Positions 21,601 to 24,600 of a stretch of 64,000 bases of DNA are shown here, piece after piece; position 1 is the first letter of the stretch; the number at the start of each line of letters is the position of its first letter. The position numbers are program-made. The DNA is taken from NCBI RefSeq assembly GCF_056746865.1, contig NZ_CM163382.1; one strand, 5' to 3'.

Positions 21601-24600
21601 TCACAGGAGAGCGCCATTGACGAACATCCCTGTGCGAAACGAACAGATTCGGCAAACGGCATTCCGTCTACCCAACACGAAGCAAGTCCCGCCATCATGG
21701 CATCGCCCGCTCCGGTAACATTAATGACATTGGTTTTGATCGGCGCAGACCAACCACTTTCACCGCTGATATCACTGTAATAAACGCCGTCGCCGCCCAT
21801 GCTCATTACCAGTCGGTTCAGGCCATGTTGATGGAACCAGGCAGCAACTTTTGCCACATCTTCACGCCCTGACAAAGCAATCCCACTCAAGGTTTCCGCT
21901 TCAAGGCGGTTTGGCTTCAGGGTGTGGATCTGATTTAGACGGTCACGCACTTTGACACATTTCCATGCCGAAACCGGATCGACAAATACAGGTACATTGG
22001 CGGCATTATCCAGAATCCATGCCAGTGCCTCTTCACTGATATTACAGTCCGCGACAATGACCTTTGCCCTTTGAATAAATTCACGGTGCTGTGCGAGATA
22101 TTCAGCTGTAATAGCGTTGCTAATATTCATGTCATTTATAGCAACCAGCATTTCACCGGTATTATCGAGTAATGATAAATAGCTCGACGTGTTTTCTCCC
22201 GGCACAATCAGGCATTTATCGACATAAACACCAGATTGATTGGTTTGCGTTAGCAACGATTGACCATAAAAATCACTGCCTACTGCGCTCAGTAGCCAGG
22301 ATTTATTCCCCAGCAACGCCAGGTTTTGTGCAATATTGCGCCCGACTCCACCAGGCGTAAATTTTATTTTACCTGGATTTGAATCCGCATAATTTAATGA
22401 TTCATGTGAATATCCGGCGACATCAATATTCGCCGAACCTATAATTACGACATAATCCTTTTCGCGCATAGCACGTCCTCTGGTAAAAAATTACCAACCC
22501 TGTCAATCCACAAGAATATTGATACTGCAAAGACGGTTTAAACATGTGTTCATATTTAAACATGTGCTCATAGTATGCATGTTTTACGTAAAGTAAATTA
22601 CCGCCAGAGAGGCAAAATGGGCAGATTTGAGCAGGCTCACAAAACGCGATTAAATGCCTGAATTATAAAAACGGGGAATTTGTGACGGGATGCACAGAAC
22701 AGGAACAATAAAAAAGGGCAGAAATTAATCTGCCCTTGAGGAAATAACCTTAGTGTTTGATGAAGGTTTCAGGTTTCTACTAAAAGATAAAACCATTTAA
22801 ATTCATAAAATTACATTCACAAACCGGTCATTCTCTTTGCGCGCATCAAATGTTACAGGGCAGGAAATTTCTGCCCTGTAACACACCTTTTATTACGCTG
22901 CTTTCGCTACTGCGTCCACTTCCGGACGTTTCAGGAAGGCATAGGCCAGACCCGCCACCAGCGTACCGGCAATAATGGCTACCAGGTAACCCAGTACCGG
23001 CGTAATAGCGCCAGGGATCAGCAGAACAAACAGACCACCGTGCGGTGCCATCAGTTTCGCACCAATCGCCATTGAGATTGCGCCAGTCAGCGCCCCACCC
23101 ACGATACAGCACGGCAGCACACGCATCGGATCACGAGCAGCAAACGGAATTGCACCTTCCGAAATGAAGCACAGTCCCAATACCAGAGCGGCTTTGCCAC
23201 CTTCCTGCTGCGCTTTGTCGAATTTGCGACGCGCCACCATTGTTGCCAGGCCCATTGCCAGCGGTGGCACCATACCTGCCGCCATAATCGCCGCCATCGG
23301 GCCATAGGTTTGAGTACTCAGCAGACCCACACCGAATGCGTACGCTGCTTTGTTTACCGGACCGCCCATGTCAGTACACATCATGCCACCGAGGATCGCC
23401 CCCAGCAGAACCGCATTCGCAGTCCCCATGGTCTGCAGCCAGTGAGTCAACCCTTCGAGAATGCCAGCAACCGGTTTACCGATCAGGTAGATCATCGCCA
23501 GACCGACCACCAGACTGGAAATTAGCGGAATGATCAGAATCGGTTTCAGCGCCTCCATACTCTGTGGCAGTTTCAATTGCGTACTGATTAACTTCGCAAT
23601 GTAACCAGCCAGGAAGCCCGCAATAATACCGCCAATGAAGCCAGAACCAGTGCTGACCGCCAGCATACCGCCAATCAGACCCGGCGTGAGACCCGGACGA
23701 TCGGCAATGGAAAAGGCAATATAACCTGCCAGTACCGGCACCATCAACGCAAAGGCTGAACCACCACCAATCTGCATCAGCGCCGCAGCCAACGTACCCG
23801 GCTCTTTAAACGCTTCGATACCAAAAGCAAAAGAAAGCGCGATACACAGACCACCTGCAACGACCATCGGCAGCATGTAAGAGACGCCAGTCAGCAAGTG
23901 ACGGTAAGCGCCTGCACTCTCTTTCTTACCTTCAGTGGTCGCTGTTTGAGTTTTGCCCGCCGGTTCATACGGCGTTGCTTCAGCAACCGCATTATCCAGT
24001 TCCTGCGCGGTTTTCTTCAGCGCCAGACCGGTAGAGGTACGATACATCGGTTTACCAGCAAATTTCGCCAGATCCACTTCGATATCTGCCGCCACAATCA
24101 CCAGATCCGCTGCTGCGACTTCTTCGGGAGTGATTGCATTACCCGCGCCAACAGAACCACGGGTTTCAACTTTCACCCACCAGCCACGTTTTTTCGCTTC
24201 GGTTTCAATGGCTTCAGCCGCCATAAAGGTGTGTGCTACGCCAGTCGGGCAAGCAGTCACCGCAACTACGCGTTTCGGACCGCTGGCGGCAACCGGTGCT
24301 GTCGCAGCGACCGGCGCAGTGTAAGGTTTCGCATGGCCTTTGGCTTCACTCAGGAACAGCTCAGGGTGCGCAACTGCCCGGGAAATATCGCCCAGCCAGA
24401 CATTTTTACCGTTCAGCGCGCTGTCGTTCGGGATGGAATCACCGAGAACAATCGCCATTTCAGCGTCGTTCGGATTGTCGATGATTTCCAGTTTTGCTTT
24501 TCGCGCCGCCGCGCCCAGCAGGGTCTTCGCCATATAGGCGCGTGCCTGACCGAGATTAGCGTCAATAATCAGCAGCGTTTTCATTATGCCTCTCCTGCTG

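What the first reader, a model, noticed from the sequence alone, without database searches (positions are those of the whole stretch)
22706..22881. Two related GGGCAG-core palindromes downstream of fruA, only one a canonical terminator
The distal hairpin (22714-22737) has a U-tract on the minus strand and fits a fruBKA terminator. The proximal one (22853-22881, 11-bp arms, TTACAGGGCAG-gaaattt-CTGCCCTGTAA) starts 12 bp after the fruA stop but lacks a U-tract on the fruA strand. Both share the GGGCAG-AAATT-CTGCCC core. Possibilities are a duplicated structural element, a protein-binding palindrome, or an RNase processing/stability hairpin at the operon 3' end.
Basis: seen in the sequence. Interest (0 to 1): 0.3.

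Follow-up and report, generated by a model that had tools for sequence, protein, structure and literature searches.

The report
Duplicated fruBKA terminator hairpin in E. coli
Two look-alike hairpins follow the E. coli fructose-transporter gene fruA: the far one is the ordinary transcription terminator, and the near one is a second copy of that hairpin that has no U-tract and probably survives as a stabilising stem-loop in the mRNA tail, which makes this tidy but ordinary.

Summary
The window is E. coli, with fruBKA and psuKGT both on the minus strand. The 423-bp fruA-psuK spacer holds two GGGCAG...CTGCCC hairpins, the only two in 64 kb (0.05 expected by chance).

- **Distal hairpin D (22714-22737):** 9 bp followed by U6. 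It is a canonical intrinsic terminator. Its stem and T-tract are invariant in every Escherichia sequence sampled.
- **Proximal hairpin P (22850-22884):** a 9-bp core that extends to 14-15 bp, dG -24 kcal/mol. It has no usable U-tract on either strand.
- **Relatives:** in 59 of 80 fruA loci examined the first canonical terminator starts within 45 nt of the stop. Citrobacter and several other genera carry a single GGGCAGAG-ATTT-CTCTGCCC-T6-8 terminator there. C. amalonaticus has fruA-terminator-psuK with no second hairpin.
- **Origin:** P sits at the ancestral position. D keeps the ancestral U-tract and downstream flank. Both therefore descend from one terminator, now separated by a lineage-variable spacer: AT-rich unique DNA in 4230 genomes, a BIME in 1194.
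- **Function of P:** the P core is better conserved than the spacer, and several changes keep pairing only on the fruA-sense RNA. P is most likely an RNA stem-loop that blocks exonucleases. This is not tested.
- **Rejected:** a protein-binding site, an sRNA, a small ORF.

Interest is low to moderate.

The parts
22893..24584 (-). fruA CDS (PTS fructose IIBC), the last gene of fruBKA. Stop TAA at 22893-22895, with a second in-frame TAA at 22890-22892.
   Evidence: ORF list. RefSeq annotation of the identical strain 118UI and of K-12. Sequence.
22850..22884 (-). Proximal hairpin P. Core ACAGGGCAG / CTGCCCTGT (22855-22863 / 22871-22879) with an outer extension GUGUU/AACAU. No U-tract follows: the tail is UUGAUGCG.
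   Evidence: dG -24, z -6.2. Terminator d-score -16 to -50 on either strand. Sits at the position of the single terminator of relatives.
22738..22849 (-). AT-rich spacer between the hairpins (about 114 nt, GC 0.32). Single copy, fast-evolving, and replaced by an unrelated BIME-containing 141-nt spacer in the B2-type allele.
   Evidence: No conserved ORF. No promoter-like site on the minus strand. An IS1 is inserted here in strain 203740.
22714..22737 (-). Distal hairpin D, the stem-loop of the fruBKA intrinsic terminator (AAGGGCAGA-uuaauu-UCUGCCCUU).
   Evidence: dG -15.5, z -5.4. Stem invariant in all sampled Escherichia sequences. Orthologous to the Citrobacter terminator through its T-tract and downstream flank.
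22704..22713 (-). U-tract of the terminator. Together with the last two stem residues it reads UUUUUUAUUGUU on the fruA-sense RNA.
   Evidence: d-score +19 to +35. A T5-6 run is conserved in all alleles.

Best explanation
P and D are two descendants of the single intrinsic terminator that follows fruA in related enterobacteria (GGGCAGAG-ATTT-CTCTGCCC-T6-8, starting about 17-20 nt after the stop).

In Escherichia the hairpin is present twice, with 112-141 bp of lineage-variable DNA between the copies. D kept the U-tract and the downstream flank, and it is the working Rho-independent terminator of fruBKA. It insulates psuKGT, which lies downstream on the same strand.

P kept the ancestral position just after the stop codon, but the ancestral U-tract does not follow it. 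In most alleles the sequence that follows pairs with P's own upstream flank, which gives a longer stem.

P does not terminate by itself. It is transcribed into the fruBKA 3' UTR and most likely acts as an RNA stem-loop that stops 3'-to-5' exonucleases, and possibly defines a processed 3' end after the AU-rich spacer is cleaved.

What is shown: the anatomy, the chance statistics, the homology to the single ancestral terminator, the invariance of D, and the excess conservation of the P core. What is inferred: that D terminates in vivo, that P protects the mRNA, and how the duplication arose.
For: **Identity of the locus.** The window is 100% identical to E. coli 118UI. The gene order is fruB-fruK-fruA then psuK-psuG-psuT, all on the minus strand, and nothing is annotated in the 423-bp spacer.

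**D as a terminator.** The consensus scan calls only D on the minus strand. The d-score is +19 to +35 for D, +41 to +47 for the Citrobacter singles, and -16 to -50 for P on both strands and in both alleles.

**Ancestral state.**
- In 59 of the 80 fruA loci examined (77 relatives from other genera, one non-coli Escherichia, L005, plus this window and the B2-type allele), the first canonical terminator starts within 45 nt of the stop, median 17 nt.
- 36 of the 80 fetched relative loci have at least one GGGCNG...CNGCCC hairpin after fruA. In Citrobacter, E. soli and K. indica it reads GGGCAGAG-ATTT-CTCTGCCC or a close variant.
- C. amalonaticus has fruA-terminator-psuK with a 290-bp spacer and one hairpin. 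Its T-tract and downstream flank align to D, and its upstream flank (GTGTCATACCAGGGCAG) resembles P's (GTGTGTTACAGGGCAG).
- The B2-type P (ATCGGGGCTGAGACATCTCTGCCCC) is 3 mismatches from the Citrobacter hairpin.

**Conservation.**
- The D stem and T-run are invariant in 14 sampled Escherichia sequences.
- Against the divergent alleles GF43 and L005, spacer identity is 0.78 and 0.68, P core identity is 1.00 and 0.84, and D identity is 0.97 and 0.97. The 16 inner stem positions of P are unchanged in both.

**RNA-level pairing.**
- Six of P's 14 pairs show changes on both sides between alleles. L086 has A-U to C-G.
- K-12, L093 and L005 carry changes that are G.U wobbles only on the fruA-sense strand.
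- Unpaired cells number 16 on the sense strand against 23 on the antisense strand.

**Known class.** Stable stem-loops not followed by U-rich sequence mark and protect the 3' ends of many E. coli transcripts against PNPase and RNase II (PMC6061677).
Against: - I found no RNA 3'-end, half-life or termination data for fruBKA.
- P is not strictly maintained. K-12 has a G.U pair, O157 has two mismatches (dG -15.1), many strains lose an outer pair, two B2 variants lose an inner C-G pair, and GF43 has only the 9-bp core.
- D is itself a hairpin that should already protect the 3' end, so a second barrier may add little.
- One natural strain carries an IS1 in the spacer, between P and D.
- The conservation argument assumes that the spacer is neutral and that no gene conversion occurs between P and D.
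Confidence: 0.6

Rival explanations
1. P is a functionless fossil. It is a copy of the ancestral terminator hairpin left stranded without a U-tract. It is still a hairpin only because palindromes decay slowly, or are re-perfected by template-switch mutation. D does all the work.
For: - Weakening variants are common and reach high frequency: K-12 G.U, O157 dG -15.1, the outer-pair loss A-to-T in many strains, and the B2 C-to-A change.
- GF43 lacks the outer stem.
- IS1 is tolerated in the spacer.
- 50-mers around P and around D show similar identity spectra across 4230 genomes.
Against: - The inner 16 stem positions of P are unchanged in GF43 and L005, where the adjacent spacer has diverged by 22% and 32%. 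By hand, 0.78^16 is about 0.02 and 0.68^16 is about 0.002.
- There is one fully compensatory change and three sense-strand-only wobble changes.
- Every allele keeps dG at or below -15.
Confidence: 0.27
2. P is a weak, backup or bidirectional terminator. It would stop some fruBKA transcription, or antisense transcription entering fruA from the psuK side.
For: The loose scan flags P on the + strand, with tail CACCTTTTAT. The minus-strand tail has UUU at +3 to +5. There is a promoter-like site on the + strand at 22417-22445.
Against: - The d-score is negative on both strands.
- The + strand T-run starts 4 nt after the stem.
- The base of the stem is AU-rich.
- The B2-type allele has no T-run on either side (tails ACAAACGC and AAGAGAAA), yet keeps the hairpin.
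Confidence: 0.07
3. The spacer plus D is a separate small gene: a 3'-UTR-derived or independent Hfq-binding sRNA, or a small ORF. P would mark its upstream boundary.
For: D has a U6 tail preceded by AU-rich sequence. An RNA called fruA.psuK.IGR appears in Hfq RIL-seq with 42 chimeric fragments (PMC8175672 supplement). Some genomes annotate a 48-aa ORF here.
Against: - In RIL-seq that RNA is always first in the chimera (target-like), has one partner, and has sRNA probability 0.001.
- There is no Rfam match and no minus-strand promoter-like site.
- The spacer is the least conserved part, and 1194 genomes replace it with an unrelated BIME.
- The 48-aa frame has two stops in this window.
Confidence: 0.04
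4. P is a DNA palindrome bound by a dimeric regulator, for example of fru or psu genes.
For: Perfect 11-15-bp inverted repeat in an intergenic region.
Against: - The arm sequence is not conserved between alleles (GTTACAGGGCAG versus CATCATCGGGGC), while the pairing is.
- Wobble-only substitutions break the DNA symmetry.
- It lies about 380 bp upstream of psuK and downstream of fruA.
- It is homologous to a terminator.
Confidence: 0.02

Closest known systems
Rho-independent (intrinsic) terminators, including tandem terminators at operon ends
   Same: D has every sequence hallmark: a GC-rich 9-bp stem, a 6-nt loop, a U6 tract, and a position after the last gene of the operon. It is orthologous to the single fruA terminator of Citrobacter, Enterobacter, Leclercia and K. 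indica. P shares the hairpin sequence.
   Different: P lacks the U-tract and scores as a non-terminator on both strands. The pair is therefore not a true tandem terminator but one terminator plus a U-less copy of its hairpin.
U-less protective 3' stem-loops of E. coli transcripts (Dar and Sorek 2018, PMC6061677)
   Same: P is an energetically stable stem-loop just after a coding region and is not followed by U-rich sequence. That is the anatomy reported to block PNPase and RNase II and to define steady-state 3' ends.
   Different: Those structures were described for Rho-terminated transcripts with a rut site downstream. Here an intrinsic terminator lies 115 nt downstream, and the spacer shows no extended C-rich, G-poor tract. 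No 3'-end data exist for P.
REP/BIME elements in 3' UTRs (mRNA-stabilising repeated palindromes)
   Same: Same location, between a stop codon and a terminator, and same presumed role. The B2-type allele really does carry a BIME between P and D, and Salmonella arizonae and Enterobacter carry REP-like hairpins after fruA.
   Different: P and the AT-rich spacer are single-copy in every genome and do not match the REP sequence. P derives from the local terminator, not from a dispersed repeat family.

Membership tests
Intrinsic terminator - hairpin D | GC-rich stem of at least 5 bp with a 3-8-nt loop | tested here: met
   9 pairs, 5 of them G-C, 6-nt loop, dG -15.5, z -5.4
Intrinsic terminator - hairpin D | U-tract immediately 3' of the stem on the transcribed strand | tested here: met
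   TTTTTTATTGTT on the minus strand. d-score +19 to +35.
Intrinsic terminator - hairpin D | Lies downstream of, and in the same orientation as, the last gene of an operon, and is conserved at the orthologous site | tested here: met
   fruBKA is on the minus strand. Stem and T-run are invariant in Escherichia and orthologous to the Citrobacter terminator.
Intrinsic terminator - hairpin D | Transcripts end at the U-tract in vivo or in vitro | not testable with these tools
   No fruA entries in the Term-seq supplements that could be read
Intrinsic terminator - hairpin P | Stable GC-containing stem-loop | tested here: met
   14-15 pairs, dG -24, z -6.2
Intrinsic terminator - hairpin P | U-tract immediately 3' of the stem | tested here: not met
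   The minus-strand tail UUGAUGCG is not called by the scan. The + strand T-run starts 4 nt after the stem and is absent in the B2-type allele. The d-score is -16 to -50.
U-less protective 3' stem-loop (PMC6061677) | Energetically stable stem-loop not followed by U-rich sequence, in a 3' UTR | tested here: met
   dG is -15 to -29.5 in all alleles.
U-less protective 3' stem-loop (PMC6061677) | A steady-state RNA 3' end immediately downstream, dependent on 3'-5' exonucleases | not testable with these tools
   Needs Term-seq or 3' RACE in wild-type and pnp/rnb backgrounds on fructose-grown cells
U-less protective 3' stem-loop (PMC6061677) | A rut-like C-rich, G-poor region downstream | tested here: inconclusive
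   C exceeds G on the sense strand only over about 40 nt next to D. The rest of the spacer has G above C and 17-35% GC.
REP/BIME | Many dispersed copies per genome | tested here: not met
   P, the AT-rich spacer and D occur at one locus per genome in 4230 genomes. By contrast the B2-type spacer core matches at least 40 places per genome.
Described RNA families (Rfam 15) | Covariance-model match at or near the gathering score | tested here: not met
   The best hits in 22300-23100 score 13-22 bits against gathering scores of 43-100
Hfq-dependent sRNA (3'-UTR-derived) | sRNA-like behaviour in the RNA-RNA interactome: many partners, second in the chimera | tested here: not met
   fruA.psuK.IGR has 1 partner, SIC score -1 and sRNA probability 0.001 (PMC8175672 supplement)
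Transcription-factor operator palindrome | The half-site sequence is conserved across alleles and relatives | tested here: not met
   The outer arms are entirely different in the B2-type and window-type alleles while pairing is kept

The most novel reading that the evidence does not exclude
The hairpin duplication may have happened more than once. In the B2-type allele P and D share a derived loop (ACATC in both, against the ancestral ATTTC) and flank a BIME. In the other alleles P and D both keep AATTTC and flank an unrelated AT-rich 114-nt segment.

That pattern is what independent insertions into the same terminator would leave if each insertion duplicated the roughly 20-bp hairpin as a target. 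It would be a footprint of an undescribed insertion mechanism aimed at hairpins or cruciforms, possibly linked to REP/BIME spread.

Gene conversion between P and D, or replacement of the spacer after a single duplication, explains the same data.
Probability: 0.1. Interest if true: 0.55.

Novelty: new member of a known kind. Interest (0 to 1): 0.22.

Why it matters
The practical gain is small. It fixes the likely 3' boundary of the fruBKA operon at D (22704-22737) rather than at the more striking palindrome next to the stop codon. It also warns annotators that the strongest hairpin after a gene need not be its terminator.

It offers a clean natural example of how a terminator hairpin can be duplicated, lose its U-tract and be kept as a 3'-UTR stem-loop. 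The example comes with ready-made natural variants for testing what such U-less hairpins contribute to mRNA stability: a compensatory change, wobble changes, weakened stems, a BIME-containing allele and an allele interrupted by IS1.

If the duplication proves to be recurrent, it would point to a mutational mechanism that targets terminator hairpins.

Tried and rejected
- **AT-rich spacer as a decayed BIME.** Rejected. The local alignment score against the B2 BIME spacer is 16, against 14.9 +/- 2.2 for shuffles.
- **Spacer as a relic of an older fruA 3' end** (the reading ...KPETFIKH* before D). Rejected. The window's FruA tail KRPEVDAVAKAA is already the ancestral one shared with Citrobacter, so nothing was displaced.
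- **Tandem duplication of a larger block.** Not supported. P/D similarity is confined to the hairpin: only 8-12-nt matches were found (D10, D14, I5).
- **Small ORFs.** The 48-aa 'hypothetical protein' annotated in some genomes has two in-frame stops here. The 15-23-aa ORFs are not conserved between alleles (by eye against L005).
- **Rfam.** Nothing near threshold.
- **Literature.** There is no paper on a fruA 3' UTR or terminator. There are no fruA entries in the readable Term-seq supplements. No supplements are held for PMC6061677, PMC9023263, PMC5145812 or PMC4161252.
- **Population-level conservation of P versus D.** BLAST identity bands of 50-mers were not informative, because the loops and flanks vary in both.
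- **First version of my terminator finder.** It missed terminators whose A-tract pairs with the T-tract. I corrected it.
- **Not obtained.** E. albertii, E. fergusonii, S. enterica subsp. enterica and S. bongori loci. The single genome-contig scan returned only one non-coli Escherichia and S. arizonae.
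Full report
**Where we are.** The window is Escherichia coli, and the intergenic segment is 100% identical to strain 118UI. On the minus strand the genes run fruB-fruK-fruA (fruA 22893-24584) and then psuK-psuG-psuT (psuK 21528-22469). RefSeq annotates nothing in the 423-bp spacer 22470-22892, in 118UI or in K-12.

**The observation.** Both palindromes exist as described.
On the fruA-sense RNA they extend to 14 pairs (22850-22884) with a 7-nt loop. dG is -24 kcal/mol and z is -6.2 against dinucleotide shuffles.
- D (22714-22737): 9 pairs with a 6-nt loop, dG -15.5, z -5.4. 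On the fruA-sense strand it is followed by UUUUUUAUUGUU.
- The motif GGGCAG-N3-12-CTGCCC occurs twice in 64 kb, both times here, against 0.05 expected.
- Of 50 perfect hairpins in the window, P/D is the only pair sharing a 7-nt arm within 400 nt.
- The same test finds 2 such pairs in 516 kb of other enterobacterial sequence, and one of them is this very locus in another Escherichia.
- fruA ends in TAATAA, so P's outermost pair begins 8-9 nt after the first stop.

**Which hairpin is a terminator.** The consensus scan calls D and not P on the minus strand. It calls P on the + strand only through a T-run that begins 4 nt after the stem. I also applied a d'Aubenton-Carafa-type score. The formula is recalled from memory and uses modern energy parameters, so it is indicative only. 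It gives D +19 to +35, the single terminators of Citrobacter +41 to +47, and P -16 to -50 on either strand and in both E. coli alleles. No Rfam family matches anywhere in 22300-23100.

**What relatives have.** I fetched 80 fruA loci from other Enterobacterales.
- Counting this window and the B2-type allele and dropping one mis-called locus (L066), 59 of the 80 loci examined have their first canonical terminator within 45 nt of the fruA stop, median 17 nt.
- The Escherichia alleles, S. enterica arizonae and E. hormaechei are the cases where the terminator lies more than 100 nt away behind a strong hairpin.
- In Citrobacter (L006-L017, L076), Enterobacter soli and Klebsiella indica the single terminator reads GGGCAGAG-ATTT-CTCTGCCC followed by T6-8, or a close variant. 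Leclercia and Silvania have a GGGCAGAGG/GGCAGAGG variant with a different loop. In all, 36 of the 80 fetched loci have at least one GGGCNG...CNGCCC hairpin after fruA.
- Citrobacter amalonaticus is the key outgroup, because psuK follows fruA there too. Its spacer is about 290 bp and holds one hairpin.
- Its T-tract and the following 60 nt align to the flank of E. coli D. Its upstream flank (GTGTCATACCAGGGCAG) resembles that of E. coli P (GTGTGTTACAGGGCAG).

So P occupies the ancestral position and D retains the ancestral U-tract and downstream flank. Both carry the ancestral stem. Escherichia has gained one extra copy of the hairpin plus a spacer.

**Alleles within Escherichia.**
- 4230 of 5426 complete E. 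coli genomes carry the window-type region.
- 1194 genomes, including the B2-type APEC O1 and the type strain ATCC 11775, carry a deeply divergent allele.
  - Its homology to the window-type breaks inside the last 27 nt of fruA. The C-terminus is KRPETQIVEKNA instead of KRPEVDAVAKAA.
  - P is CATCATCGGGGCTGAGACATCTCTGCCCCGATGATG (dG -29.5) and D is GAGGGCAGAAACATCTCTGCCCTTTTTC.
  - The 141-nt spacer is a BIME with an IHF-type L motif. Its core matches at least 40 places per genome.
- The B2-type P is three mismatches from the Citrobacter youngae/braakii hairpin. The sequence that replaces the T-tract (GATGATG) pairs with P's own upstream flank (CATCATC).
- A cryptic Escherichia (L005, only 79% identical to E. 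coli here) and strain GF43 (L095) carry further diverged versions of the AT-rich type.
- The AT-rich and BIME spacers are not detectably related.
- P and D resemble each other more within an allele than between alleles. In B2, GGGCtGAgACATCTCTGCCC versus GGGCaGAaACATCTCTGCCC is 18 of 20 identical. This implies either separate duplications or gene conversion.

**Constraint.** In 14 sampled Escherichia sequences the D stem and the T-run never change. Only the loop varies.

P is more variable.
- Changes that keep pairing: an A-U to C-G double change in L086. G-C to G.U in K-12. C-G to U.G in L093. A-U to U.G in L005.
- Changes that disrupt pairing: the outer A-to-T change in many strains. An A.C mismatch in O157 (dG -15.1). 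A C-to-A change in two B2 variants. No outer stem at all in GF43.

The three wobble changes pair only on the fruA-sense RNA. Across all alleles, 16 stem cells are unpaired on the sense strand and 23 on the antisense strand.

In the deep comparisons the P core is better kept than the spacer.

| Compared with window | Spacer identity | P core identity | D identity |
|---|---|---|---|
| GF43 | 0.78 | 1.00 | 0.97 |
| L005 | 0.68 | 0.84 | 0.97 |

The 16 inner stem positions are unchanged in both. If they evolved like the spacer, the chance of that would be about 0.02 and 0.002. This is my own arithmetic and it assumes a neutral spacer. I read this as strong selection on D and weaker but real selection on a roughly 9-bp RNA hairpin at P.

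**Mechanism proposed.** D terminates fruBKA transcription and shields psuKGT from read-through. This is inferred from the anatomy and the conservation. P is transcribed as part of the 3' UTR. It fits the class of stable stem-loops without U-tracts that Dar and Sorek found at the steady-state 3' ends of E. coli transcripts and showed to protect against PNPase and RNase II (PMC6061677). That class was defined on Rho-terminated transcripts. Here the spacer shows no extended C-rich tract and an intrinsic terminator follows, so P is functionally similar at best and membership is not demonstrated. The AU-rich spacer is a plausible endonuclease entry point. After cleavage there, P would become the protective 3' end. 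This step is inferred and untested.

**Alternatives.**
- Neutral fossil: this remains a serious rival, given the weakened natural variants and an IS1 sitting in the spacer of strain 203740 with a 9-bp duplication of 22818-22826.
- Weak or bidirectional terminator: unlikely, because neither tail is U-rich in the B2-type allele.
- sRNA or small gene in the spacer:
  - Hfq RIL-seq does detect a fruA.psuK.IGR RNA. It behaves as a target: 42 chimeric fragments, one partner, always first in the chimera, sRNA probability 0.001 (PMC8175672 supplement).
  - There is no minus-strand promoter-like site.
  - The spacer is the least conserved part.
  - The annotated 48-aa ORF is broken in this window.
- DNA operator: excluded in practice, because the arm sequence is free to change as long as pairing is kept.

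**How the duplication arose.** This cannot be settled here. The P/D similarity stops at the hairpin, so it is not a large tandem duplication. The outer stems of P are complements of each allele's own ancestral upstream flank. Template-switch 'perfecting' of a quasi-palindrome would produce that, and so would selection for a long stem. This is my inference. The within-allele similarity of P and D, together with the unrelated spacers, leaves open a recurrent insertion process that duplicates the hairpin. I rate that at about 10%.

**Verdict.** The finding is real and correctly read. D is an ordinary, well-conserved intrinsic terminator. P is a U-less duplicate of the same hairpin, specific to Escherichia. 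It is most likely a 3'-UTR stem-loop with a modest stabilising role, or else a slowly decaying relic. It is a new example of known kinds of element, and interest is low to moderate.

Noticed in passing
window 22537-22572 (minus-strand sense, about 70-100 nt upstream of the psuK start): Tandem 18-bp direct repeat TTTAAACATGTG(T/C)TCATA x2, overlapping palindromes. The motif TATGAACACATGTT...AACATGTGCTC is conserved upstream of psuK in the B2-type allele and in Citrobacter amalonaticus, although the surrounding sequence has diverged. It looks like an operator for a psuKGT regulator.
   Followed up: partly
window about 22470-22920; locus L003 5509-6011: Deep allelic dimorphism in E. coli. 1194 of 5426 genomes (B2-type) carry a version of the fruA tail, the spacer and the psuK 5' region that is too divergent for megablast. 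The breakpoint lies inside the last 27 nt of fruA and changes the FruA C-terminus to KRPETQIVEKNA. Parts of that allele resemble Citrobacter more than the window-type does, which suggests old recombination or introgression.
   Followed up: partly
L092 1625-2392 (E. coli strain 203740); target = window 22818-22826: An IS1 is inserted in the spacer between P and D, with a 9-bp target duplication CACAAACCG. This separates fruA and P from the terminator D by about 770 bp.
   Followed up: yes
L004 955-1101 (+), equivalent to window 22654-22800: Some RefSeq genomes annotate a 48-aa 'hypothetical protein' (WP_001300063.1) on the strand opposite to fruA, reading through hairpin D. The same frame has two stop codons in this window, so it is probably an annotation artefact.
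   Followed up: yes
hits H12/H42, E. coli strain ER1709 (NZ_CP030240.1 4389267-4389596): In this laboratory strain the psuK start and the first 60 nt of the spacer abut sequence annotated as fruB. This implies a deletion that removes the two hairpins, fruA and fruK.
   Followed up: no
fruA-psuK intergenic region of K-12 (PMC8175672 supplement): An RNA named fruA.psuK.IGR is captured on Hfq in one RIL-seq condition, with 42 chimeric fragments and a single hub-like sRNA partner. The partner was not identified, and it is unclear whether the RNA is the fruA 3' UTR or the psuK 5' UTR.
   Followed up: partly
window 22417-22445 (+): The best sigma-70-like match in the region (GCGACA-17-TATAAT, 10 of 12) lies inside the psuK 5' coding end. 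It points antisense to psuK, towards the hairpins. One match against 1.8 expected, so probably chance.
   Followed up: no
L019 (Salmonella enterica subsp. arizonae), 0-170 nt after the fruA stop: After fruA there are two REP-like GC-rich hairpins. They are followed by what looks like a degenerate remnant of the GGGCAGAG...CTCTGCCC terminator (GGAGGGATTTTCTCTGTCTTTTTATT). This is another lineage in which palindromes have come to lie between the stop codon and the old terminator.
   Followed up: no
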